This document shows, one piece after another, positions 6,702 to 57,593 of a stretch of DNA of 64,000 nt. Made by a program: the position numbers and the translations under genes. The first letter of the stretch is position 1, and each line of letters starts with the position of its first letter. Below the pieces are notes generated by a model. It searched no databases and was not told the DNA's origin. It saw nothing but the letters and a program-made list of their open reading frames with translations. This DNA is from Candidatus Zixiibacteriota bacterium (GTDB lineage: Bacteria; Zixibacteria; MSB-5A5; JAABVY01; JAHJOQ01): positions 13,343 to 77,342 of the forward strand of contig JAHJOQ010000073.1 in assembly GCA_018820315.1 (NCBI GenBank). The letters run 5' to 3'.

Positions 6702-7286
6702 CTACCGAATCGACTTGAGCTTCTTCTTCAGCAGCTCTCGCGCTCTGAATATTCGTGCCTTGACTGTCCCGACAGGTGTACCAAGTATATCGGCGATCTC
6801 TTCATACGACTTGTCGTCCCTGTGCCTGTAGATGATAACCTCCCGATACTTGTCCGGCAGTGAATCAATAGCCTCGTCAATGGACTGGAGCTTCTGCTTT
6901 CGAACCAGGTTTCGCTCCGGGTCCCATGTCCGGTCGGGCAACTCGAATTCTACCTGACCATCCTTGGTTTGGATTGGCCTGTCAAGCGACAACGCCTCAA
7001 TCCGTTTCTTCCGCACGAAGTCTATTGCACAGTTGGCGGCGATTTTGTACAGCCACGTCGAGAATCGGTATTCGGAGCGATATGAAGCAAGTGCATTGAA
7101 GGCCTTCATGAAGGTCTCCTGCACAAGATCCTGCGCTTCATCCTGATTCCTGACGATCTTCGTGACTACATGGAATATCGCCTTTCTGTGTCTGACCAAA
7201 AGGGACTCATAGGCTTTCTGATCGCCCTCAAGAGCCCTGGCAATCAGAAGATCGTCTTGAACCTGCTTTTCTGGTCCCTCTGCCAT
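6702..7286 (-). CDS. ECF-subfamily RNA polymerase sigma factor (sigma-70 regions 2 and 4)
   Basis: Region 2 motif DLVQETFMKAFNALASYRSEYRFSTWLYKIAANCAIDFVRKKR. Region 4 HTH motif SYEEIADILGTPVGTVKARIFRARELLKK. 194 aa. Confidence 0.9.
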   Translation of the reverse strand: MAEGPEKQVQDDLLIARALEGDQKAYESLLVRHRKAIFHVVTKIVRNQDEAQDLVQETFMKAFNALASYRSEYRFSTWLYKIAANCAIDFVRKKRIEALSLDRPIQTKDGQVEFELPDRTWDPERNLVRKQKLQSIDEAIDSLPDKYREVIIYRHRDDKSYEEIADILGTPVGTVKARIFRARELLKKKLKSIR

Positions 7287-7931: not shown

Positions 7932-8072
7932 ATGGGCAAGGGAAGAAAAGACACATTCAAGCTGCCAAAGAAGACATTTTGGCATTTGTACAGTCTTCAG
8001 GGTCTCGAATCTGAGAAGTTTGTCAAAGTGGTGAACAAGATCCTGAAAAAAGAGTTTACACTGATTAAGTAA
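7932..8072 (+). CDS. Small ORF (46 aa), very lysine-rich basic peptide; hypothetical
   Basis: ATG preceded by GGAAGGGTGA. Translation is MGKGRKDTFKLPKKTFWHLYSLQGLESEKFVKVVNKILKKEFTLIK. It falls below the ORF-track length cutoff and no homolog is recognisable by eye. Confidence 0.25.
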   Translation: MGKGRKDTFKLPKKTFWHLYSLQGLESEKFVKVVNKILKKEFTLIK

Positions 8073-10935: not shown

Positions 10936-10964
10936 ATCCTCTATAGGAACTCTGCGCGAATGAT
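10936..10964 (+). promoter_or_regulatory. Candidate ECF sigmaE-type promoter (GGAACTC-N16-TTCTAG) upstream of the second ECF sigma gene
   Basis: GGAACT at 10936-10941 and TCTA at 10960-10963. This resembles the RpoE-type GGAACTT-N16-TCTAA consensus and lies about 75 nt upstream of the likely ATG at 11042. Confidence 0.3.
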
Positions 10965-11041
10965 GCAGTTCTAGAAAGTGAAGGCTGTTTTGCCCGCGAA
11001 TGGACTCACTTGCGGGCAGCAAGAAAGTCAGGTGTATAAGA

Positions 11042-11749
11042 ATGAATAGGAATGCGCCAGAATCGGAAGCTGGGAGGACTGCTGCGATCTCCGAACAGGG
11101 TTCGGCAAAGCAGGGTCAGACCCCGACAAATGGCGCACGGAACACGAAGGATAACAGTGAAGAGGAGACCTTGCACCTGATCGGACTCGTCAAGGCTGGA
11201 GACAACCGGGCGTTCGGAGAGCTTGTGAATCGTTATCAATCTCAGGTCGCCAACATCGCCTATCGGATGGTAAACGATTATGACGACGCCAAGGATGTTA
11301 GTCAATTGGTGTTTGTCAAGACCGCCGATAATATCAACAGCTACGATCCCTCCAAGAGGTTCTCGACATGGCTTTACAGAATTACAGTGAATGCGTCGAT
11401 CGACTATATTCGCAAGCACAGACGTCACAATCATGAACATCTCGACAATTACGCAGACTCGCTGGAAAACCTCGATGCATCTCCGGCTCAGGTCTATCAG
11501 ATGAAGCATCTCCGCTTCGCGATTCTGAAAGCCGCTGATCGACTGAATGCGAAGCAGCGAGCGGCCTTTATTCTGAAAGATATGGAGGGGCACGAGGTGA
11601 GCGAGGTGGCTGAGATACTCAACATGCCGGAAGCGACCGTGCGTTGGTATATCCACCGGGCAAGACTTAGGTTGAGACGTGAATTAAAAGGGCAGTATTC
11701 TCTTCGAACGTTCGGAAGCGAGATGGTGAACAGCCTCATTAGAAATTGA
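11042..11749 (+). CDS. ECF-subfamily RNA polymerase sigma factor with low-complexity N-terminal extension
   Basis: Region 2 motif FGELVNRYQSQVANIAYRMVNDYDDAKDVSQLVFVKT...FSTWLYRITVNASIDYIRKHRR. Region 4 HTH motif VSEVAEILNMPEATVRWYIHRARLRLRREL. The ORF opens at 11000; the ATG at 11042 has a better RBS (AGGTG). No anti-sigma gene is evident downstream. Confidence 0.85.
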   Translation: MNRNAPESEAGRTAAISEQGSAKQGQTPTNGARNTKDNSEEETLHLIGLVKAGDNRAFGELVNRYQSQVANIAYRMVNDYDDAKDVSQLVFVKTADNINSYDPSKRFSTWLYRITVNASIDYIRKHRRHNHEHLDNYADSLENLDASPAQVYQMKHLRFAILKAADRLNAKQRAAFILKDMEGHEVSEVAEILNMPEATVRWYIHRARLRLRRELKGQYSLRTFGSEMVNSLIRN

Positions 11750-11926
11750 TGGTCCGCTCACTGTGAAATCAAAGCAGCACAGCTACTGTGTGCACTAGTA
11801 TGGCTCGTCTTAGCTCCGCTGAACGAATTGTGCCCCGACACCACAGGAACTTTTTGTCTGTACGGTCATTAATTGTTATATTGTCCAACGTGGCTCAATA
11901 TTGATTACTTGTGGATGGGGAATATC

Positions 11927-12964
11927 ATGAAGGCTGTCAATTCGATTCTTGAAGCAATAGGTGGAACTCCGATGATGCGGATCAACAATCTGGTCCCGGA
12001 TGGATGGGCTGATTTGTACGCAAAGGCGGAATATATGAATCCCGGTGGCTCTGTCAAAGACAGGATGGCGCTCTATGTCATCGACGACGCCGAGAAACGC
12101 GGGCTGCTCAAACCGGGCGGAACAATTGTCGAGAATACGTCGGGAAACACGGGTGTCGGTGTGGCGATGGTCGCGGCGGTTAAGGGCTACAAGGCGATAC
12201 TGACCATTCCCGACAAAATGTCACGCGAGAAGATAGACAGGCTGAGGGCATACGGCGCCGAGGTTATTGTCACTCGGACAGATGTTCCACCAGATTCGCC
12301 GGAGTCATACTACGAGATTGCAAAGCGAATTGCAAAAGAGACTCCCAATTCATTCTATCTCGATCAATACCACAACCCGAAAAATATCGAAGCTCACTAC
12401 AACACCACCGGGCCGGAAATTTGGGAGCAGACCGAGGGCAAGCTCGATTATTTCGTTGGTGGAATCGGAACCGGAGGGACAGTCTCTGGAATCGGGAGGT
12501 TCCTCAAGGAGCAAAACCCCAATATCAAAATCATAGCTGTCGATCCTGAAGGGTCGGTGTTTTACGACTATTTCAAGACGGGCAAGCTGATAGAGCCTCA
12601 TGTTTACAAGCTTGAAGGCATCGGCGAGGATATGCTTGTCAAGGCGATGGATTTTGATGTAGTAGACGATATCATTCAGGTCAAAGACAAAGAGTCATTC
12701 CTGATGGCGAGGCGTCTGATGACGGAAGAGGGTATCTATGCGGGAGGATCATCCGGCGCCGCGATGGTTGCTGCTCTCAAGGTTGCTGAAGAAGCGGGCA
12801 GAGGCAGGATGGTAGTGACACTGTTCCCCGACTCTGGCGACAGGTATCTGTCGAAGATGTTCTCGGATGAATGGATGCGCGAAAACGGATTTCTCGACAA
12901 CGACAACATTTCTGGCGACGCACAAGAAGGATCTCGATATGAGCAAAGACAAAACAAGGTTTGA
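11927..12964 (+). CDS. PLP-dependent cysteine synthase / cystathionine beta-synthase family enzyme (CysK/CBS fold; no C-terminal CBS-pair)
   Basis: PLP-lysine motif NPGGSVKDRMALY. Gly-rich loop SGNTGVGVAM. GIGTGGTVSGIG nucleotide-like loop and C-terminal SSG motif. The ORF-track start at 11873 (TTG) was moved to the in-frame ATG at 11927. Confidence 0.8.
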   Translation: MKAVNSILEAIGGTPMMRINNLVPDGWADLYAKAEYMNPGGSVKDRMALYVIDDAEKRGLLKPGGTIVENTSGNTGVGVAMVAAVKGYKAILTIPDKMSREKIDRLRAYGAEVIVTRTDVPPDSPESYYEIAKRIAKETPNSFYLDQYHNPKNIEAHYNTTGPEIWEQTEGKLDYFVGGIGTGGTVSGIGRFLKEQNPNIKIIAVDPEGSVFYDYFKTGKLIEPHVYKLEGIGEDMLVKAMDFDVVDDIIQVKDKESFLMARRLMTEEGIYAGGSSGAAMVAALKVAEEAGRGRMVVTLFPDSGDRYLSKMFSDEWMRENGFLDNDNISGDAQEGSRYEQRQNKV

Positions 12965-14096
12965 AACACGAGCCATTCACGCCGGACAATCTCCGGATCC
13001 ATCCACAGGCGCAATAACAACACCGATATTCCAGACATCGACATATGTTCAGGAGGGTGTCGGAGGACACAAGGGCTATGAGTATTCCCGCACTGACAAT
13101 CCGACCCGCACAGCGCTGCAGGAGTGCCTTGCGTCACTCGAAAACGCAAAGTACGGACTGTCGTTTGCTTCCGGGATGAGCACGATCTCGACGATCATGA
13201 ATCTCCTGAAAGCGGGCGATCATATCGTGTCATCGGATGATGTCTATGGTGGCACGTATCGGATCTTCGAACATGTATTTCGTGACTACGGCCTGAAGTA
13301 CGATTATGTGAATATATCGAATCTCTCTGAAATAGAGAGCGCAATAAAGCCTGAAACAAAGATGGTCTGGGTTGAGACCCCCACTAACCCGCTGCTGAAA
13401 ATCACCGACCTCAAAGGTGTAGCCGAAATTTGCCGAAAGCACAATCTCATTTCCTGTGTAGATAACACTTTTGCGACCCCATACTTCCAGAAGCCTCTTG
13501 ATTACGGCATTGATATTGTGATGCATTCGGTCACAAAATTCCTCGGTGGGCATGCGGATACGGTCGGTGGAGCGCTGATGACATCGAGTGACAAACTCTA
13601 TGACCGTCTGAAGTTCTGCCAGAATGCCGTCGGAGCAATTCCGGGACCGTTCGACTGCTGGCTGGTACTGCGGGGCGTGAAGACGCTTGCTGTGCGCATG
13701 GAGCGGCACGCACAGAATGCCGGTCAAATCGCGAACTGGCTGGAGGCGCATCCTAAAGTCAGGAAAGTCATATATCCGGGATTGAAGTCGCATCCGGGGC
13801 ATGAGATTGCTAAGAAGCAAATGACCGGCTTTGGCGGGCTCATCTCGTTTGAGATCGACGGTTCGCAGGCGGACGCAGTCAAGTTTCTCGAAAATGTTAA
13901 GCTGTTTGCGCTGGCCGAATCGCTGGGAGGTGTCGAATCCCTGATCGAGCATCCCGGTCTGATGACGCATGCGTCTATTCCGGCTGAAGTGCGGCACGAG
14001 AAAGGGCTCTCAGACAGTCTCATCAGGATTTCGGTCGGCATCGAGTATGTCGACGACCTGATAGCTGATCTTGACGACGCGTTGGCTAATCTGTAG
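12939..14096 (+). CDS. Cys/Met-metabolism PLP-dependent enzyme (cystathionine gamma-lyase / gamma-synthase family)
   Basis: N-terminus TRAIHAGQSPDPSTGAITTPIFQTSTY. PLP-lysine region SVTKFLGGHADTVGGAL. The start at 12939 (AAGAAGGA RBS) overlaps the upstream gene by 26 nt, indicating translational coupling. Confidence 0.85.
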   Translation: MSKDKTRFETRAIHAGQSPDPSTGAITTPIFQTSTYVQEGVGGHKGYEYSRTDNPTRTALQECLASLENAKYGLSFASGMSTISTIMNLLKAGDHIVSSDDVYGGTYRIFEHVFRDYGLKYDYVNISNLSEIESAIKPETKMVWVETPTNPLLKITDLKGVAEICRKHNLISCVDNTFATPYFQKPLDYGIDIVMHSVTKFLGGHADTVGGALMTSSDKLYDRLKFCQNAVGAIPGPFDCWLVLRGVKTLAVRMERHAQNAGQIANWLEAHPKVRKVIYPGLKSHPGHEIAKKQMTGFGGLISFEIDGSQADAVKFLENVKLFALAESLGGVESLIEHPGLMTHASIPAEVRHEKGLSDSLIRISVGIEYVDDLIADLDDALANL

Positions 14097-14161
14097 CGCT
14101 ATGGTAAGGCTCTACTATAAGAATGGCTTGGGATAGTGGTATCGAATTAACTGGAGGTTAT

Positions 14162-14557
14162 ATGGAAAAGATGAAATACACATTCGGTAAGCTGACGAAG
14201 ATGACTTACGACGAGGCGCTTGCAAAGCTGCCTGATCTCCTCAAGGAAGAGGGTTTCGGAGTGCTCACCGAGATCGATGTCAAAGAGACGATGAAGAAGA
14301 AACTTGATGTCGGATTTCGGAAGTACAAGATCTTGGGTGCATGCAATCCGAAGCTTGCATATCAGGCATTTCAAGCCGAGATTGAGATCGGCGCTCTGCT
14401 TCCGTGCAATGTGATAGTGTATGAAGATGACAGCGGCAAGGCTGTTGTATCATTCATGGATCCGCTGATGGCGCTCGGGTTCATTGGTAATGAGAGCCTG
14501 TCAGGCGTTGCTAAAGAAGCCAACGATCGCCTAAGAAGAGTACTGGACAAGATTTGA
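14162..14557 (+). CDS. DUF302-family small protein
   Basis: 131 aa. The sequence pattern (KMTYDEALAKLPDLLKEEGFGVLTEIDV...GALLPCNVIVYEDD...VSFMDP) matches the DUF302 fold. GGAGG RBS sits 5 nt upstream of ATG 14162. Confidence 0.6.
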   Translation: MEKMKYTFGKLTKMTYDEALAKLPDLLKEEGFGVLTEIDVKETMKKKLDVGFRKYKILGACNPKLAYQAFQAEIEIGALLPCNVIVYEDDSGKAVVSFMDPLMALGFIGNESLSGVAKEANDRLRRVLDKI

Positions 14558-14588
14558 TAATAACTGTTGTCTGATCCGGCGGAGCCTC

Positions 14589-16793
14589 ATGAAACCAGTT
14601 TACTTAGATTATAACGCCACGACTCCGATCGATCCCGGTGTTGCCGACGCCATGCTGCCGTTTCTCCGGGATGATTTCGGCAACCCGTCAAGCGGGCATT
14701 ACTATGGATATCGCACACGCGCGGCGGTAGAGATTGCGCGCTTGCAGATCGCCTCTCTTCTCGGTTGTGATTCCGATGAAGTGATATTCACAAGTGGCGG
14801 CACCGAATCGAACAACTACGCAATCCGGGGATATGCCTTTGCGAACAGGCATCGAGGACAGCACATAATCACGTCTCAGATCGAACATCCGGCGGTGCTT
14901 GAAGTCTGCAGCTACCTCGAGAAGCACTGTTTCGACATAACGCGCCTCCCAGTCGATGAATTCGGTATGGTGAATCCCTCGGCAGTGGACGATGCGATTC
15001 GCGCCGACACCATTCTCGTGACGATCATGTTGGCAAACAATGAGGTAGGAACAATCCAGCCGATTGCTGAAATAGCAGAGATTCTCACCGACCGTCAAAT
15101 CGGTTTTCACACCGATGCTGCTCAGGCTGTCGGCAAGATTGCGACGCGTGTTAACGATCTCGGAGTCGATATGCTCAGCATAGCGGGGCACAAGCTATAC
15201 GCACCGAAGGGGATCGGCGCGCTGTATGTCCGTCGCGGAATCGAAATCGAGAAATTTATGTTCGGCGCCGATCATGAATCAAATCGACGTGCAGGCACCG
15301 AGAATGTGCTCGAGATAGTCGGTTTAGGCAAGGCATCCGAACTTGCACACGAGAATTTCGATAGCTATGCCTCAAGTATGCGCCGAACACGTGATCGGAT
15401 GCAGGAGCTTCTGCTTGCCGGGTTCCCTTCGATGAAGATTAACGGTCATCTTGAGAAGCGACTGCCGAATACCCTCAGCGTCAGCTTCCCCAGAATCGAA
15501 GCAAACATAATCATTTCTGAGGCTGCCGGTGTTGCAATATCTGCCGGAGCGGCTTGCCATACGGAATCTGTTGATATATCACACGTGCTTGAAGCGATGG
15601 GTATCCCTGAGGATATTGCCATGGGGACATTGCGGATTTCAACCGGCAGATTTACTACCGACAACGACATCGAGAAGGCTTTCGAGGAGCTGAGCCGAGT
15701 TGTGAGTGGACTTTTGTCTGGCGCTAGCGGGAGTGATGGCACATCTGCGAAGCAAGGGGAGTATAAGCTAACCCGATATACACACGGACTTGGATGTGCG
15801 TGCAAGCTGAGACCACAGGTGCTTGAATCAGTCTTGAGCAAACTGCCGATCCCGGATGACAAGAATGTCCTGGTCGGGACAGAGAACGCCGATGACGCCG
15901 CAGTGTATCTAATCAGCGATGATCTGGCTATCGTGCAGACGGTCGATTTCTTCACTCCGGTCGTGGACGATCCATACGATTTCGGTCAGGTGGCTGCAGC
16001 CAATTCGCTCAGCGATATATATGCAATGGGTGCGAAGCCTCTGTTTGCCCTGTCCATAGTAGGCTTCCCATCGAATCGCCTACCACAGTTTGTCCTCGAA
16101 GAGATACTGCGAGGTGCGCATGACAAGGCGAAGGAGGCGGGGATATGCATCATCGGCGGTCATACAGTTGATGACACCGAACCCCAATATGGCCTGGCCG
16201 TTACTGGCAGTGTGCACCCGTCGAAAATCTGGATGAACAGAGGTGCACGCCCCGGTGATAGCATCATCCTGACCAAACCGATTGGCATCGGCATACTGAG
16301 CACAGCCGCTAAGCAGGGGATGATCGATCAGCCCAGCATGGATGAAATTGTGCTGCACATGTCTACGCTTAACAAAGGCGCTGCAGATATTCTTGCGGAC
16401 TACTCCGTTCATGCGTGTACCGATGTGACTGGTTTCGGATTAGCGGGACATCTTCATGAAATGACTCGCGCCAGCGGGGTAGAAGTTGAACTCGATTCTT
16501 CAGTCATTCCGGTGATAGGCGGCGCGCGCGAAGCGGCTGTGGCTGGTGCGATTCCGGGAGGCACTGTTTCGAATATGGAATTTATGGAGGGAAAGATCGA
16601 GTGGGATGACTCGGTCGACCGCATCGCGCGGACTCTTATCTGCGACGCCCAGACTTCCGGCGGCCTCCTGATTGCGCTGGATAGTGCTGATGCTCCACAG
16701 GCAGTCCGGGCGCTTCAGGATGCCGAAGTGAAATACGCGGCTATCATTGGAAAAGTTACCGGAACCGGCGCGGGGAAGATTTTCGTCAAATAG
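14589..16793 (+). CDS. selD: Fusion protein: N-terminal NifS/IscS-like cysteine desulfurase (selenocysteine lyase-like) + C-terminal selenophosphate synthetase SelD (Cys-type active site)
   Basis: N-terminal domain carries the PLP-lysine motif SIAGHKLYAPKGIGALYV and active-site Cys in SAGAACHTES, read as IscS-like. After a Gly/Ser linker (SGLLSGASGSDGTS), the sequence LTRYTHGLGCACKLRPQVLESVL...LVGTENADDAAVYLI...VDFFTPVVDDPYDFGQVAAANSLSDIYAMGAKP aligns closely with E. coli SelD (LTQYSHGAGCGCKISP...DDAAVYD...[33 protein letters not shown]). Confidence 0.85.
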   Translation: MKPVYLDYNATTPIDPGVADAMLPFLRDDFGNPSSGHYYGYRTRAAVEIARLQIASLLGCDSDEVIFTSGGTESNNYAIRGYAFANRHRGQHIITSQIEHPAVLEVCSYLEKHCFDITRLPVDEFGMVNPSAVDDAIRADTILVTIMLANNEVGTIQPIAEIAEILTDRQIGFHTDAAQAVGKIATRVNDLGVDMLSIAGHKLYAPKGIGALYVRRGIEIEKFMFGADHESNRRAGTENVLEIVGLGKASELAHENFDSYASSMRRTRDRMQELLLAGFPSMKINGHLEKRLPNTLSVSFPRIEANIIISEAAGVAISAGAACHTESVDISHVLEAMGIPEDIAMGTLRISTGRFTTDNDIEKAFEELSRVVSGLLSGASGSDGTSAKQGEYKLTRYTHGLGCACKLRPQVLESVLSKLPIPDDKNVLVGTENADDAAVYLISDDLAIVQTVDFFTPVVDDPYDFGQVAAANSLSDIYAMGAKPLFALSIVGFPSNRLPQFVLEEILRGAHDKAKEAGICIIGGHTVDDTEPQYGLAVTGSVHPSKIWMNRGARPGDSIILTKPIGIGILSTAAKQGMIDQPSMDEIVLHMSTLNKGAADILADYSVHACTDVTGFGLAGHLHEMTRASGVEVELDSSVIPVIGGAREAAVAGAIPGGTVSNMEFMEGKIEWDDSVDRIARTLICDAQTSGGLLIALDSADAPQAVRALQDAEVKYAAIIGKVTGTGAGKIFVK

Positions 16794-16812
16794 TACAAGA
16801 TATTGGAATGAG

Positions 16813-16845
16813 AAAGCCGGGACAGAGTCCCGGCTTTTCTATTTG
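16813..16845. terminator. Bidirectional Rho-independent terminator
   Basis: Stem AAAGCCGGGAC / GTCCCGGCTTT with AGA loop, followed by TCTATTT. Lies between the NifS-SelD stop (+) and the rplY stop (-). Confidence 0.65.
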
Positions 16846-38563: not shown

Positions 38564-39829
38564 GTGAGGCGAAAAGTGAGTGGAGCGAAAAGTTGGCACA
38601 GACTACTTGAATATCGAGATTGGATATTCGGAGTGATAGCGGCCGCAGCGGCAGTAATTGGCGTATGGAGTTACTTGCAGCAGCCGGAATTGAGATGGCG
38701 ACACATTGAAACCACTGAACATATGACAGAATCGGGAGATCGCGGACAATATACACTGTTAATCGCCAACAAGGGGTTACGTGATGCCTTTAATGTAACG
38801 TTCGTGGCGAGTCTGGAATATGGTCAGTTAGACTCAGCCAATTTCAATCTCGGACTTTCTGATACCCAGTCAGTGGTACTAGGGCAAACTGACATTGAGA
38901 TCGGACTCTCGCGAATACCCAAAGGAAGCGCATCAGAGATCTACGTTTTCGCCAGTTCGCAGGATAGTCTGCCGAGAGAATTGGAAGTTATCAAGCTAAT
39001 AGGTGATGAAGTGCAGGGCGAAGAGTGGGCTCCAGTAACCAGAGTGTGGAAAGCGGTCTATTCAGGAGTTGTTCTTCTTCTACTACTACTGTGTATCATC
39101 AACATTCGCCGATTGCGATTCCCGAAAGTGCGGTCAGGCGGCTATGAATCAAGTATGACGGATATTGTAACGCAAGACGCTTTGGATGAAATCAAGACAA
39201 TAGGGGCATTTGAATTAAAGGCTGATACAGAGGATAGCAGTTATGAATGGAAGACTGAGCATTTAGCTGGCCTTGAGTGGCTCCAGAATAGAATTAAGAA
39301 TGCCAAGAAGCAGATTTCGATTGTATCGTACTCTTTTGTGTCACTTGAGACCCAGCTTGAGCAAGCTCTCGAGGAATATCTTCAGAAAGACAGTACTTGT
39401 CGTTTGCGCATTCTCCTTCTGCAACCGCATTCTCCTAGTTTCGTACAGAAGACACTACTGGAGTCATTCGATCGCCAGGCAGAGTTATTTACGCCGAGTC
39501 AATGGAACAAAGCCGCTATGGAATTGCGAAAGTTGCATGCCCATGATCTAACCCAGACGTTCTCGATTGTTAAGAGATGGTCCAATAAGTACGGTGCCGA
39601 AAGGGTAAAGTGCAGAACGTACTTTGATACGCCGTTATTTGCAGGTTTCCTCTTTGATGATGATGCATTTTGTCTTTCGTCTTACTTCCTCGATCCGGTG
39701 ATGCGTGGGTTCCACAGTCGACGACTTTGCGTGGAAAGCTGCGGCAATTCCGATGATCTGCAAGTTCTGCGGAAGATCTTTCAGAACTGGTTCACTGTTA
39801 AGTTTGCGATGGGGGGCGAAGCCGGTTGA
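38564..39829 (+). CDS. Hypothetical two-TM membrane protein; C-terminal cytoplasmic domain with phospholipase-D-like sequence pattern lacking the catalytic His/Lys (HxK replaced by FxG)
   Basis: TM1 WIFGVIAAAAAVIGVW. An approximately 130 aa beta-rich extracytoplasmic segment. TM2 VVLLLLLLCIINI. The cytoplasmic region ISIVSYSFVSLETQLEQALEEYLQKDSTCRLRILLL ... RVKCRTYFDTPLFAGFLFDDDAFCLSSYFLD parallels the PLD pattern (i.i.spYf...aL..a..rGV.Vrill ... lHaKvmivDd.wa.iGSaNfD) with H replaced by F and K by G. Confidence 0.4.
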   Translation: MRRKVSGAKSWHRLLEYRDWIFGVIAAAAAVIGVWSYLQQPELRWRHIETTEHMTESGDRGQYTLLIANKGLRDAFNVTFVASLEYGQLDSANFNLGLSDTQSVVLGQTDIEIGLSRIPKGSASEIYVFASSQDSLPRELEVIKLIGDEVQGEEWAPVTRVWKAVYSGVVLLLLLLCIINIRRLRFPKVRSGGYESSMTDIVTQDALDEIKTIGAFELKADTEDSSYEWKTEHLAGLEWLQNRIKNAKKQISIVSYSFVSLETQLEQALEEYLQKDSTCRLRILLLQPHSPSFVQKTLLESFDRQAELFTPSQWNKAAMELRKLHAHDLTQTFSIVKRWSNKYGAERVKCRTYFDTPLFAGFLFDDDAFCLSSYFLDPVMRGFHSRRLCVESCGNSDDLQVLRKIFQNWFTVKFAMGGEAG

Positions 39830-39867
39830 AATCTATCTCGATCAACTGGGTAAGGAGAAGTCAACAT

Positions 39868-40551
39868 ATGTACGCCATAGCCAGATCTTACAATGCGCCT
39901 CGCTTGCGAGGCTTAATCAAGAGACTTGACAGTAGTGATCGGTTTACGGCGATTGTTGTTGTAGTCGATAGCGATCGGGACTCAACTGGGACTGCAGACA
40001 GTGTTTCAGCTATGCGGACACGCACATCCATACGAACAGTCCTTCTGGAGAACTATGGATGGTCCAGAGCCTTGAATGCCGGTATTGATGCCTTGCCACG
40101 TCAGCAGCACGAGAATGAGCTTGTCATGATGATATCTAATGAGGTCGCAATCACGATACCTCAAATCGATGCGCTTGCTGAGAAGGCATCCTCGAAAGAT
40201 GCTTCCTGTAGTTACGTACACTTTAAAGGGCGGTCAGAACCGACTTATTTTGTTCCCAGAAACACGTGCGCAGTGTGGAGGAGAGGTGTTTTTGAAAGAG
40301 TGGGACTTTTTGACGAAAGGTTTGATCACAAGACTGGCATGGAGGACTACGAGCTGGTTTTGCGATCGTATAGAGATGCATCACTGCTTCCTTTTCTGGC
40401 CGCGAGAGGCGTTCCTCTTCGGCTTCCGGAGACTCTTAATCTTGCTGAGAAGCTAGATTGGGAAAGCCGCGGGTTGCTCTGGATCAACTCGCTGTATAGC
40501 GAGCATGTTGTATCAGCGATCGAGGCGCACCTTGCTTCGCAGTTTATATAG
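39868..40551 (+). CDS. Glycosyltransferase family 2-like protein (degenerate: DxD motif not evident)
   Basis: AAGGAGAA RBS 8 nt upstream of ATG. TAIVVVVDSDRDSTGT parallels the GT2 DDGSTD segment. ENYGWSRALNAGIDA parallels the NxG..ARN.Gi segment. ERVGLFDERFDHKTGMEDYELVLR parallels GGFDE...gEDyDl..R. The expected DAD/DxD position reads MMISNEV. Confidence 0.45.
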   Translation: MYAIARSYNAPRLRGLIKRLDSSDRFTAIVVVVDSDRDSTGTADSVSAMRTRTSIRTVLLENYGWSRALNAGIDALPRQQHENELVMMISNEVAITIPQIDALAEKASSKDASCSYVHFKGRSEPTYFVPRNTCAVWRRGVFERVGLFDERFDHKTGMEDYELVLRSYRDASLLPFLAARGVPLRLPETLNLAEKLDWESRGLLWINSLYSEHVVSAIEAHLASQFI

Positions 40552-57100: not shown

Positions 57101-57593
57101 AGAAAACACAGACAAGAAAGGCAATCGGATGGCCTTTGCTACGCTGAGAGATCTCAGCGGTACAATTGAGATTATCATCTTCTCGGCTCTTTACGCAACT
57201 CGGCAGGATATTATCAAAGAGAAATCCCTGGTAATGATATCCGGGAGATTATCGAAGCGCGAGGAAGAAAAACCGAAGATAGTAGCAGACAGGGTCGAGT
57301 CTCTTGATACAATCGCGGATGGTGGAGAGTTGACTCTCACACTATTCATTGAAGGTCCTAATTTCAACGGTGGGCGACTTGAATCGATAGAAGAGATTCT
57401 CGGCGATTATCCGGGCTCTGCCCAGGTAATACTCGTCCTCGATACCGGAAATGAACACGTGGTCGTGGAAGCTGAAGGGCTGAAAGCATCTGCGAAACCT
57501 GGACTTACACGGAGACTTTCGGGGCTTCTCGGCTCCGACAAAGTACGTTGGGAAGCGAGAGCATCAGCGCATAAGAACGGAACTACCGCATAG
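54117..57593 (+). CDS. dnaE: DNA polymerase III alpha subunit
   Basis: PHP domain FIHLHNHTQYSLLDGA...ALAITDHGNMFG. Polymerase core GRGSAAGSIVSYCLGI and PDIDIDF. OB-fold and tau-binding C-terminus. 1158 aa. Confidence 0.95.
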   Translation: MSTADFIHLHNHTQYSLLDGACRIDPFLELAHDMKMPALAITDHGNMFGAIEFYKKARKRGIKPIIGCEIYVAPKSHTHKEPIAGKPSAGYHMLLLARNETGYKNLMKLVSAGYLEGFYHRPRVDKKLLKEHAEGLIATSACMKGEIPWLLLANDDVEAARAAKKFTDIFGEGNFYLEIQNHGIPKEDEARSKVLALAKRIGLPIVATNDCHYLHQKDSSAHDALLCIQTGKFISDSDRMRYNTDQIYVKTPAEMKELFADYPDAIENTLRIAEMCNLDIELGKNHLPAFPLPEGHSNLDDYLRLLAEDGLKQRYSEITDEHRKRLDFELDVIIKMGYSGYFLIVKDFIDQARRLGVRVGPGRGSAAGSIVSYCLGIVNLDPLKYGLLFERFLNPERISLPDIDIDFADRGRERIIDYVIDKYGKANVCQIITFGTMAARQSIRDVGRVMQVPYSEIDRIAKLIPSGPGQTISGALSTEPELKKLAKGDEESRKLLEFSQTLEGLARHASTHAAGVVIAPKALTEFVPLFRAPKGEETTTQYDMKCIEEIGLLKMDFLGLRTLTVIDDAIAMIKENHGIEIDLEKIPLDDERVFELFCGGHTVGIFQFESSGMQDYLRKLGPENLGDLIAMNALYRPGPLDAGTIDDYIKRKHGEEEVIYDHPKLEPILKETYGVIVYQEQVIKIAMELAGFTAGQGDVLRKAMGKKVVEIMEQQQKTFLDGCAANGVDPKVAAAVFLQIETFARYGFNKSHAAGYSYLAYQTAYLKAHYPREFNAASLTSEMGNTDRVIILIEECRRLGIPVLPPDINSCGAQFTVDGDRIRFGLGAVKNVGLGAIEKIMEAREKDGDFASIFDFVSRVDIKAMNRRVLESLIKAGALDSLPGHRAQLLAAVESVLAFGQARHASKQHENQASLFGADADTIGVVEPALPDETEWDNMTKLSFEEELLGEYISGHPLDSYRTLLSAAATCNTFEAEDYPDDSSVTIGGVLTRIRENTDKKGNRMAFATLRDLSGTIEIIIFSALYATRQDIIKEKSLVMISGRLSKREEEKPKIVADRVESLDTIADGGELTLTLFIEGPNFNGGRLESIEEILGDYPGSAQVILVLDTGNEHVVVEAEGLKASAKPGLTRRLSGLLGSDKVRWEARASAHKNGTTA

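What the first reader, a model, noticed from the sequence alone, without database searches (positions are those of the whole stretch)
10936..16845. ECF-sigma-headed operon linking transsulfuration enzymes, DUF302 and a NifS-SelD fusion: a candidate selenomethionine/selenocysteine-to-selenophosphate salvage route
Four genes (CBS/CysK-like, CGL/CGS-like, DUF302, NifS-SelD) run head to tail with overlaps or short spacers. A strong terminator follows only the last gene. An ECF sigma with its own sigmaE-like promoter sits directly upstream. CBS plus CGL convert homocysteine to cysteine, and equally selenohomocysteine to selenocysteine. NifS-like enzymes are the established selenocysteine lyases feeding SelD. 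Clustering all four suggests a dedicated salvage pathway for organoselenium or organosulfur, possibly stress-regulated by the ECF sigma. A weak GGAACTT motif also lies about 75 nt upstream of the first gene.
Basis: partly seen in the sequence, partly recalled or inferred. Interest (0 to 1): 0.65.

Follow-up and report, generated by a model that had tools for sequence, protein, structure and literature searches.

The report
Transsulfuration genes joined to selenophosphate operon
In one lineage of Zixibacteria, the genes that turn homocysteine into cysteine share an operon with an already known fused enzyme that takes selenium from selenocysteine and activates it; this hints at a bacterial route for recycling organic selenium but does not prove one.

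Summary
An ECF sigma gene is followed by four tightly packed genes: a CBS core, CGL, DUF302 and a NifS-SelD fusion. One strong hairpin terminator closes the unit. Both GGAAC promoter motifs are conserved in relatives.

NifS-SelD fusions are already described and have thousands of homologs. In 16 fusion loci from other phyla and in 80 stand-alone SelD loci, no CBS, CGL or DUF302 gene lies nearby.

The cluster is confined to one Zixibacteria clade, always in the same chromosomal slot. There it occurs as a nested series:
- sigma-CBS-CGL-DUF302-fusion
- sigma-CGL-DUF302-fusion
- sigma-DUF302-fusion
- sigma-fusion
- fusion alone, once with a CBS pseudogene relic that shows secondary loss

In other genomes, at least one of them a more distant relative, CBS-CGL-DUF302 occurs without the fusion.

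The best reading is a composite operon. A dispensable homocysteine-to-cysteine module with DUF302 is co-expressed with a self-sufficient selenium-activating enzyme. Selenium can pass through it because these enzymes do not distinguish sulfur from selenium. A dedicated selenomethionine salvage route remains possible (about 0.25). It is testable and bears on a gap stated in a 2026 review. Whether this genome uses selenium could not be checked here.

The parts
10946..10975 (+). ECF-type, probably autoregulatory promoter of the sigma gene: GGAAC-N17-GTTCTA
   Evidence: Read directly from the sequence. G[GA]AAC-N17/18-GTT is found upstream of the orthologous sigma gene in the window, L087, L088, L089 and L002. 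My estimate of the chance expectation is about 0.01 per 150-nt region.
11000..11749 (+). ECF sigma factor, with a likely start at 11043. It has a poorly conserved basic N-terminal tail. No anti-sigma gene is adjacent.
   Evidence: Pfam Sigma70_r2, r4_2 and Sigma70_ECF. TIGR02937 108 bits against a cutoff of 42.9. Orthologs are 60-66% identical, and the core is near-invariant.
11846..11882 (+). Operon promoter: GGAAC (11846-11850), -35 TTGTCT (11854-11859), N17, -10 TATATT (11877-11882). It ends 44 nt before the CBS start.
   Evidence: Promoter scan hit with a TG extension. It is the only TTGNNN-N17-TANNNT match in the sigma-to-operon spacer in each of 5 lineages, with (G/C)GAAC 3 nt upstream in 4 of 5. 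L086 keeps it in front of the relic.
11927..12964 (+). Cystathionine beta-synthase catalytic core, 345 aa, without heme or Bateman domains
   Evidence: PF00291 E 2e-83. TIGR01137 460 bits, compared with cysK 334 bits. The best solved relative is M. tuberculosis CBS Rv1077, E 1e-103. Orthologs in L172 and L176 (68-71% identical) carry CBS-pair domains.
12939..14096 (+). Cystathionine gamma-lyase family enzyme, 385 aa. It overlaps the CBS gene by 26 nt.
   Evidence: PF01053 E 4e-160. NF005871 547 bits against a cutoff of 513. The best solved relatives are bacterial CGLs, 7ba4 at E 1e-150.
14162..14557 (+). DUF302 protein, 131 aa, with two invariant cysteines in GACNP and LPCN motifs
   Evidence: PF03625 E 1.5e-27. 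Resembles TT1751, PDB 1j3m, E 8e-25. The alignment of 25 homologs gives C61 and C82 as invariant.
14589..16793 (+). NifS-SelD fusion: a cysteine desulfurase / selenocysteine lyase-like domain (aa 1-375) joined to selenophosphate synthetase (aa 390-734)
   Evidence: Aminotran_5, AIRS and AIRS_C. TIGR03402 470 bits; TIGR00476 398 bits against a cutoff of 125. GLGCACK aligns with E. coli SelD GAGCGCK, which holds Cys17 and Lys20 by my numbering from the alignment. H201-K202 (the HK motif) and C323 (in the SAGAAC loop) are invariant in the alignment; I assign them as the PLP lysine and the catalytic cysteine from general knowledge of NifS/IscS enzymes.
16813..16845 (.). Intrinsic terminator hairpin shared with the convergent L25 gene (16883-17581, minus strand)
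   Evidence: -25.9 kcal/mol, z = -4.6, 0 of 200 shuffles as stable, followed by UUUUCUAUUU.

Best explanation
This is a lineage-specific composite operon of Zixibacteria, built from two modules that can each stand alone.

Module 1 is CBS core, CGL and DUF302. It is a reverse-transsulfuration unit that converts homocysteine through cystathionine to cysteine. DUF302 is a conserved partner of unknown role with two invariant cysteines.

Module 2 is the already known bifunctional NifS-SelD. Its PLP-dependent NifS domain takes the chalcogen from selenocysteine or cysteine onto its catalytic cysteine. It then hands selenium to the Cys/Lys loop of the fused SelD domain, which uses ATP to make selenophosphate.

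Both modules are transcribed from one conserved promoter: a sigma-70-like -35/-10 pair with an ECF-type GGAAC just upstream. This promoter lies downstream of an autoregulated ECF sigma gene. Transcription ends at a single hairpin.

Because CBS and CGL do not discriminate sulfur from selenium, the upstream module can supply selenocysteine as well as cysteine to the NifS domain. It is an optional supply line, not a required or demonstrably selenium-dedicated pathway.

Shown: gene content, spacing, promoter and terminator conservation, and the separability of the modules. Inferred: co-transcription, substrate flow, and any role of the sigma factor or of DUF302.
For: - Domains and catalytic motifs are intact.
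- Junctions are tight, no internal terminator was found, and there is one strong terminal hairpin.
- The same promoter precedes whichever gene comes first in every architecture: CBS in the window, CGL in L088 and L170, DUF302 in L002, the fusion in L089, and a CBS relic in L086.
- The nested architectures all sit in one syntenic slot, from the M23 peptidase to the convergent L25-Prs-S9 genes.
- The CBS pseudogene relic in L086 (78% identity over 27 aa, E 8e-13) shows that the full operon was ancestral and the upstream genes were lost secondarily.
- CBS-CGL-DUF302 occurs without the fusion in L172, L173 and L176.
- The fusion has no conserved neighbours in 16 species of other phyla. No Pfam family appears in more than 4 of 114 neighbouring proteins.
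- No CBS, CGL or DUF302 gene lies near any of 80 stand-alone SelD genes.
- NifS-SelD fusions are described in the literature and predicted to make selenophosphate (PMC2398784 and PMC4561486).
Against: - Retaining one promoter and tight packing through every deletion state means co-expression with NifS-SelD has been preserved. This fits a real functional link better than mere adjacency.
- The CBS in the sigma-headed clade has lost the regulatory Bateman module that is present in the versions not linked to the fusion. This could mark specialisation.
- The biochemistry matches the animal trans-selenation route step for step.
- Nothing here measures co-transcription or substrate preference.
Confidence: 0.5

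Rival explanations
1. Dedicated trans-selenation salvage. The operon exists to convert selenomethionine-derived selenohomocysteine to selenocysteine with CBS and CGL. The NifS domain releases the selenium and SelD makes selenophosphate. DUF302 acts as a selenium or persulfide carrier, and the ECF sigma switches the pathway on.
For: - All four enzymatic steps are encoded in order in one unit.
- The arrangement is ancestral in the clade and is kept at 69% fusion identity.
- The same promoter always drives the fusion.
- DUF302 stays with the fusion even where CBS and CGL are gone (L002).
- DUF302 has two invariant cysteines.
- DUF302 recurs in sulfur clusters: sox, sqr, and next to rhodanese and thioredoxin.
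- The animal pathway is a precedent.
- A 2026 review calls the prokaryotic selenomethionine-to-selenocysteine route uncertain (PMC13188914).
Against: - CBS-CGL-DUF302 exists without SelD in the same chromosomal slot.
- The upstream genes were lost repeatedly while the fusion was kept.
- No such association appears in other phyla or around stand-alone SelD genes.
- Flanking synteny is conserved equally well.
- No selenium-specific feature could be shown in the CBS or CGL.
Confidence: 0.25
2. A sulfide, persulfide or other chalcogen stress unit under ECF control. CGL, with or without CBS, mainly generates or consumes H2S or persulfide. DUF302 buffers reactive sulfur or selenium. NifS-SelD is co-induced to deal with selenium or sulfur species.
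For: - An autoregulated ECF sigma gene lies directly upstream in 5 lineages, and a GGAAC element lies at the operon promoter in 4 of 5.
- CGL occurs without CBS in L088 and L170.
- DUF302 has sulfur-oxidation and rhodanese-thioredoxin contexts.
Against: - No anti-sigma or sensor gene is adjacent.
- The -10 region expected for the ECF promoter is not conserved at the operon. The conserved hexamers are sigma-70-like.
- The GGAAC-N17/18-GTT motif is not enriched in the window: 4 found against 3 expected.
- The sigma gene is absent from L001, L086, L172 and L176.
Confidence: 0.12
3. An all-sulfur reading. The fusion acts on cysteine made by CBS and CGL, and the SelD domain makes thiophosphate or another sulfur compound rather than selenophosphate.
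For: - The NifS domain is closest to true NifS/IscS cysteine desulfurases and far from the selenocysteine lyase SclA family (88 bits against a cutoff of 525).
- A review notes that SelD-like proteins have been proposed to act in sulfur metabolism in some archaea (PMC9312934).
Against: - The SelD half scores 398 bits on the SelD equivalog model against a cutoff of 125, and only 158 against a cutoff of 700 on the 'fusion_not_SelD' model.
- The Cys/Lys loop is identical in type to that of E. coli SelD.
- In one Bacteroidota genome a tRNA-Sec gene sits 1.2 kb upstream of the orthologous fusion (L013).
- Published fusions occur in genomes that have selenoproteins.
Confidence: 0.05

Closest known systems
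NifS-SelD (NifS-SPS) fusion proteins, first noted in Geobacter sp. FRC-32 (Zhang 2008, PMC2398784; Mariotti 2015, PMC4561486)
   Same: The domain order is the same, with NifS at the N-terminus and SelD at the C-terminus. The predicted function is also the same: selenium delivery plus selenophosphate synthesis. Homologs of about 60% identity span many phyla.
   Different: This one is the cysteine form (GCACK), not the selenocysteine form reported for Geobacter. Here it is the last gene of an operon with CBS, CGL and DUF302, a context that neither paper reports.
Animal and yeast trans-selenation pathway: CBS, CGL, selenocysteine lyase and SEPHS2 (PMC6770646; PMC13188914)
   Same: The same four chemical steps are encoded in pathway order.
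   Different: In animals the genes are unlinked and the lyase is selenium-specific. Here the lyase-like domain is NifS/IscS-like and fused to SelD. No flow of selenium through the pathway has been shown here.
Bacterial reverse-transsulfuration gene pairs, for example M. tuberculosis Rv1077 (cbs) with Rv1079, and B. subtilis mccA-mccB (recalled from memory, apart from the structure matches)
   Same: An adjacent, translationally coupled CBS and CGL pair. The closest solved relatives are the Rv1077 CBS and bacterial CGL or MccB-type enzymes.
   Different: The CBS here lacks the Bateman module. The pair is followed by DUF302 and NifS-SelD and preceded by an ECF sigma gene.
[quoted passage not shown]
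   Same: A PLP-dependent lyase is genetically coupled to SelD, together with small accessory proteins proposed to traffic sulfur or selenium.
   Different: None of YedE, YedF, LysR_Se or DUF3343 is present here. The accessory protein is DUF302, the regulator is an ECF sigma factor, and the lyase is not of the SclA family (88 bits against a cutoff of 525).
DUF302 genes in sulfur-oxidation and sulfide clusters: sox clusters of Acidithiobacillia and Sulfitobacter, and the sqr operon of Synechocystis (PMC5037610, PMC11034169, PMC5061849)
   Same: The same Pfam family, again sitting in a chalcogen-metabolism context.
   Different: The DUF302 described for Thermithiobacillus is a longer, 191-aa form that its authors suggest is periplasmic. 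Here it is a 131-aa form linked to CBS-CGL and to NifS-SelD; I did not run a signal-peptide or localisation prediction on it.

Membership tests
Selenophosphate synthetase SelD (TIGR00476) | Score above the curated equivalog cutoff, with AIRS and AIRS_C domains | tested here: met
   398 bits against a cutoff of 125. AIRS E 6e-30 and AIRS_C E 2e-22.
Selenophosphate synthetase SelD (TIGR00476) | N-terminal glycine-rich loop with the catalytic Cys (or Sec) and Lys, equivalent to E. coli Cys17 and Lys20 | tested here: met
   GLGCACK aligns with GAGCGCK of 3u0o. The loop is invariant in 16 fusion homologs.
Selenophosphate synthetase SelD (TIGR00476) | The genome carries a selenium-utilisation trait (selA/selB/tRNA-Sec, selU, or a selenium cofactor) | not testable with these tools
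   None was found in the 64 kb window (part of the window annotated by eye only). An ortholog in L013 lies beside tRNA-Sec.
NifS/IscS class-V cysteine desulfurase | PLP lysine in an HK motif and a catalytic cysteine loop | tested here: met
   H201-K202 and the SAGAAC(323)H loop are invariant in the alignment of fusion homologs. Aminotran_5 E 7e-71. The roles of these residues are assigned from general knowledge of NifS/IscS enzymes, not tested here.
NifS/IscS class-V cysteine desulfurase | Reaches the curated equivalog cutoff of NifS (TIGR03402) | tested here: not met
   470 bits against a cutoff of 530.75. It is also below the IscS and SclA cutoffs. It is NifS-like, but not assignable to a named subfamily.
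Selenocysteine-specific lyase | Preference for selenocysteine over cysteine | not testable with these tools
   This requires enzyme kinetics. Sequence places the domain nearer to the desulfurases than to SCLY or SclA.
Cystathionine beta-synthase (TIGR01137) | PALP fold closest to the CBS catalytic core rather than to CysK or CysM | tested here: met
   TIGR01137 460 bits against cysK 334 and cysM 290. The best solved relative is Rv1077 CBS. By my reading of the translated sequence, the SVKDR and TSGNTG motifs, which I recall as typical PLP-site motifs of this fold, are present.
Cystathionine beta-synthase (TIGR01137) | Full-length architecture with a C-terminal CBS-pair (Bateman) module and a score above the cutoff | tested here: not met
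   345 aa, and 460 bits against a cutoff of 510.25. Only model positions 3-332 of 457 are matched. Orthologs in L172 and L176 do carry the module.
Cystathionine gamma-lyase / gamma-synthase family (PF01053) | Family membership and the PLP lysine | tested here: met
   PF01053 E 4e-160. NF005871 547 bits against a cutoff of 513. The SVTKFLGGH motif, which by my reading of the translated sequence holds the PLP lysine, is present. The top solved relatives are CGLs.
Cystathionine gamma-lyase / gamma-synthase family (PF01053) | Reaction specificity: gamma-lyase rather than gamma-synthase, beta-lyase or methionine gamma-lyase | tested here: inconclusive
   Several equivalog models score within 25 bits of each other. 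The CGL reading rests on the pairing with CBS.
ECF (group 4) sigma factor | Regions 2 and 4 only, with a score above the family cutoff | tested here: met
   Sigma70_r2, r4_2 and Sigma70_ECF. TIGR02937 108 bits against a cutoff of 42.9.
ECF (group 4) sigma factor | Autoregulatory promoter with an AAC -35 element and a conserved -10 element | tested here: met
   G[GA]AAC-N17/18-GTT lies upstream of the gene in 5 of 5 lineages.
ECF (group 4) sigma factor | A co-transcribed cognate anti-sigma factor | tested here: not met
   The upstream gene is on the opposite strand and the downstream gene is CBS. No conserved extension resembling an anti-sigma domain is seen.
DUF302 (PF03625) | A Pfam score above the gathering cutoff and similarity to the TT1751 fold family | tested here: met
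   95.6 bits against a cutoff of 23. PDB 1j3m E 8e-25.

The most novel reading that the evidence does not exclude
The operon is the first gene-cluster-encoded bacterial trans-selenation pathway. It would run from selenomethionine or selenohomocysteine to selenocysteine and on to selenophosphate. DUF302 would be a new two-cysteine carrier of selenium or persulfide, and an anti-sigma-less ECF sigma factor would be its regulator.
Probability: 0.2. Interest if true: 0.7.

Novelty: new variant of a known kind. Interest (0 to 1): 0.4.

Why it matters
A 2026 review states that it is uncertain whether prokaryotes convert selenomethionine to selenocysteine as yeasts and animals do (PMC13188914). This operon places all the required enzymes in one transcription unit, directly upstream of a selenium-activating fusion enzyme. 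That gives a concrete, clonable candidate with which to test the question.

It also gives DUF302 two reproducible genetic partners, CBS-CGL and NifS-SelD. DUF302 is a widespread family that has solved structures but no known function.

If the link proves to be only co-location, the locus is still a clean example of an operon eroding gene by gene while it keeps its promoter.

Tried and rejected
- **Riboswitch or attenuator in the sigma-to-CBS spacer.** No Rfam hit anywhere in the window, and the spacer folds no better than shuffles (z = +0.42). Rejected.
- **tRNA-Sec.** None in the window or in the 12 loci from the Zixibacteria clade and its relatives. One was found, in L013.
- **Selenoprotein genes in the window.** A scan for in-frame TGA read-through found nothing convincing; the hits were shadow ORFs or ordinary stops.
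- **Genome collection scan.** The search patterns fell in the NifS half, so most of the 80 loci were plain NifS genes. Only 17 matched both halves of the fusion; 16 of these (L003-L017 and L043) were analysed, and L032, where the two halves lie in the reverse order, was left out.
- **Metagenome scan.** The patterns fell in the SelD half, so only stand-alone SelD genes were returned. I used them as a negative control instead.
- **Regulon search.** GGAAC-N17/18-GTT gave 4 hits against 3 expected, so there is no enrichment.
- **Recent horizontal transfer of the cluster.** GC content of 0.51-0.52 equals that of the surrounding sequence. Rejected.
- **CysK reading of the first gene.** Rejected in favour of a CBS core.
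- **Literature on DUF302 and TT1751.** No function has been reported.
- **Terminator scan.** The consensus tool missed the real terminator. Folding confirmed it.

Full report
**Observation.** The window carries five + strand genes between 11000 and 16793.
- An ECF sigma factor: Sigma70_r2 and r4_2, TIGR02937 108 bits against a cutoff of 42.9.
- A PALP enzyme closest to the cystathionine beta-synthase core: TIGR01137 460 bits, compared with cysK 334 bits.
- A Cys_Met_Meta_PP enzyme: E 4e-160, NF005871 above its cutoff.
- DUF302: E 1.5e-27.
- A 734-aa fusion of a class-V aminotransferase (NifS-like, TIGR03402 470 bits) with selenophosphate synthetase (TIGR00476 398 bits against a cutoff of 125).

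Orthologous gene calls and ribosome-binding sites refine the starts. CBS starts at 11927 (345 aa), CGL at 12939 (385 aa) and DUF302 at 14162 (131 aa). CBS and CGL therefore overlap by 26 nt. The next spacers are 65 nt and 31 nt.

The hairpin at 16813-16845 is strong: -25.9 kcal/mol, z = -4.6, with no shuffle as stable, followed by a U-rich run. It is shared with the convergent L25 gene. No + strand terminator was found inside the unit. The window has no tRNA gene and no Rfam match.

**The enzymes look functional.**
- The SelD loop GLGCACK aligns with GAGCGCK of E. coli SelD, the loop that holds Cys17 and Lys20.
- H201-K202 (the HK motif) and C323 (in the SAGAAC loop) are invariant across 16 fusion homologs. 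I assign them as the NifS PLP lysine and catalytic cysteine from general knowledge of NifS/IscS enzymes.
- The CBS-like protein is closest to the catalytic core of M. tuberculosis Rv1077 and to animal CBS. Its orthologs in more distant genomes carry the CBS-pair module.
- The CGL is closest to solved bacterial cystathionine gamma-lyases.
- DUF302 resembles TT1751 and has two invariant cysteines, in GACNP and LPCN motifs.

**What is already known.** NifS-SelD fusions were reported in 2008 and 2015 and were predicted to make selenophosphate. At least 7,998 database proteins matched the fusion at E <= 1e-20 (the search stopped at 8,000 candidates). All 120 that were listed are full-length, and the named ones come from Zixibacteria, Calditrichota, Eisenbacteria and Bacteroidales. 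The fusion itself is therefore not new. The closest match, at 99% identity, is from a Zixibacteria MAG.

**Neighbourhoods outside the clade.** I examined 16 fusion loci from species of other phyla. None has a CBS, CGL, DUF302 or ECF sigma gene beside the fusion by tblastn; the only sigma matches, in L009 and L017, lie 5-7 kb away on the opposite strand. No Pfam family occurs in more than 4 of their 114 neighbouring proteins. In 80 metagenomic loci with stand-alone SelD, none has CBS, CGL or DUF302 within 8 kb. One Bacteroidota locus has tRNA-Sec 1.2 kb upstream of the fusion, which fits a selenium role for the fusion.

**Neighbourhoods inside the clade.** In relatives whose fusion protein is 65-99% identical, the fusion gene sits in the same chromosomal slot. 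In most of them this slot runs from an M23 peptidase gene to the convergent L25-Prs-S9 genes. In several relatives NfeD, Band7 and GlnA follow, and in L087 the purine genes too. The architectures form a nested series.

| Loci | Architecture |
|---|---|
| window, L083/L084, L085, L087 | sigma-CBS-CGL-DUF302-fusion (the short contigs L083-L085 end before the sigma gene) |
| L088, L170 | sigma-CGL-DUF302-fusion |
| L002 | sigma-DUF302-fusion |
| L089 | sigma-fusion |
| L001, L086 | fusion alone |

L086 still has the operon promoter. Behind it lies a CBS pseudogene relic, 78% identical over 27 aa with E 8e-13. So the full operon was ancestral there and the upstream genes were deleted.

In other genomes, CBS (with the Bateman module), CGL and DUF302 occur without any fusion gene. 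L172 and L173 are more distant relatives (Prs 56% identical) and keep the trio beside L25-Prs. In L176 the downstream genes differ and no Prs gene is available for comparison.

A further DUF302 homolog lies beside rhodanese and thioredoxin genes. The literature places DUF302 in sox and sqr clusters.

**Promoters.** G[GA]AAC-N17/18-GTT lies upstream of the sigma gene in all five lineages that have the gene. This is a typical ECF-type autoregulatory promoter.

Between the sigma gene and the first operon gene, each lineage has exactly one TTGNNN-N17-TANNNT match. In four of five lineages a (G/C)GAAC lies 3 nt upstream of its -35 element. The -10 element expected for an ECF promoter is not conserved there. 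I therefore read this as a sigma-70-type promoter with a possible overlapping ECF -35 element.

The ECF motif is not enriched elsewhere in the window. No anti-sigma gene is adjacent, and the N-terminal tail of the sigma factor is poorly conserved.

**Interpretation.** CBS and CGL make selenocysteine from selenohomocysteine in rat liver, and NifS-like enzymes supply SelD.

The comparative evidence, however, shows two separable modules rather than an obligate pathway. The fusion is usually alone. The trio exists without it. The upstream genes have been lost repeatedly while the fusion stayed. The surrounding non-operonic synteny is conserved just as well.

Two observations still argue for a functional link:
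- One promoter is kept in front of the fusion through every deletion state.
- The CBS in this clade has lost its regulatory module.

I commit to a composite operon in which a dispensable homocysteine-to-cysteine module with DUF302 is co-expressed with NifS-SelD. It can feed the fusion cysteine or selenocysteine because the enzymes do not separate the two elements (confidence 0.5). A dedicated selenium salvage route is the main rival (0.25). An ECF-controlled chalcogen-stress unit (0.12) and an all-sulfur reading (0.05) follow.

[quoted passage not shown] A search for papers combining selenophosphate synthetase, cystathionine gamma-lyase, selenocysteine lyase and operon found only a 2026 review. 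That review calls the prokaryotic selenomethionine-to-selenocysteine route uncertain. The parts are all known and the combination is a new variant.

**Limits.** The whole-genome selenium trait, co-transcription and substrate preference could not be tested with these tools.

Noticed in passing
L086:8089-8415: A CBS pseudogene relic lies between the conserved promoter and the NifS-SelD start. It matches window CBS aa 170-216. A tiny ORF, MAKMEYTLKAYECLQGVLDKL, resembles the fused N- and C-termini of DUF302. A DUF772 transposase gene lies upstream. This looks like an operon caught in the middle of erosion.
   Followed up: yes
L172:5340-8396, L173:5340-8396, L176:3334-6402: CBS (with Bateman module), CGL and DUF302 form a recurrent trio without SelD. 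This suggests that DUF302 is a partner of reverse transsulfuration in its own right.
   Followed up: partly
L174:4779-6387 and L175:264-1913: A rhodanese, thioredoxin and DUF302 gene cluster in another genome. This is a further sulfur-trafficking context for the same DUF302 subfamily, which has two invariant cysteines.
   Followed up: no
L013:8755-8851: A tRNA-Sec gene lies 1.2 kb upstream of the NifS-SelD fusion in a Bacteroidota MAG.
   Followed up: no
window:42040-43706: A type II restriction-modification pair (N6_N4 DNA methylase and an EcoO109I-type endonuclease). It lies in a lower-GC stretch (about 0.47, against about 0.51 for the window) that spans roughly 38-44 kb. Two ORFs without Pfam hits, at 38564-40551, lie in the same stretch. 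It may be an island.
   Followed up: no
window:4418-7286 (minus strand): A second ECF sigma gene (6702-7286) is followed by two long ORFs. Their syntenic counterparts in relatives carry bactofilin and Toast_rack/LiaF-like domains (DUF4097 in some relatives), so they are probably its anti-sigma or stress module. The group is conserved in L001, L087 and L089.
   Followed up: no
window:9343-10707 (minus strand): A 454-aa protein with no Pfam hit. It ends in two dockerin-like repeats (DIDDVVYLIAYIFSGG). L001 has a different Pfam-less minus-strand ORF (537 aa) at this position, and tblastn did not link the two.
   Followed up: no
window:57579-59526: A cluster of a thioredoxin-like gene, an AhpC/TSA-like gene and an HMA-domain gene. 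A GGAAC-N18-GTT motif lies just upstream, at 57579. The motif count in the window is not above chance, so this is only a lead for the ECF regulon.
   Followed up: partly
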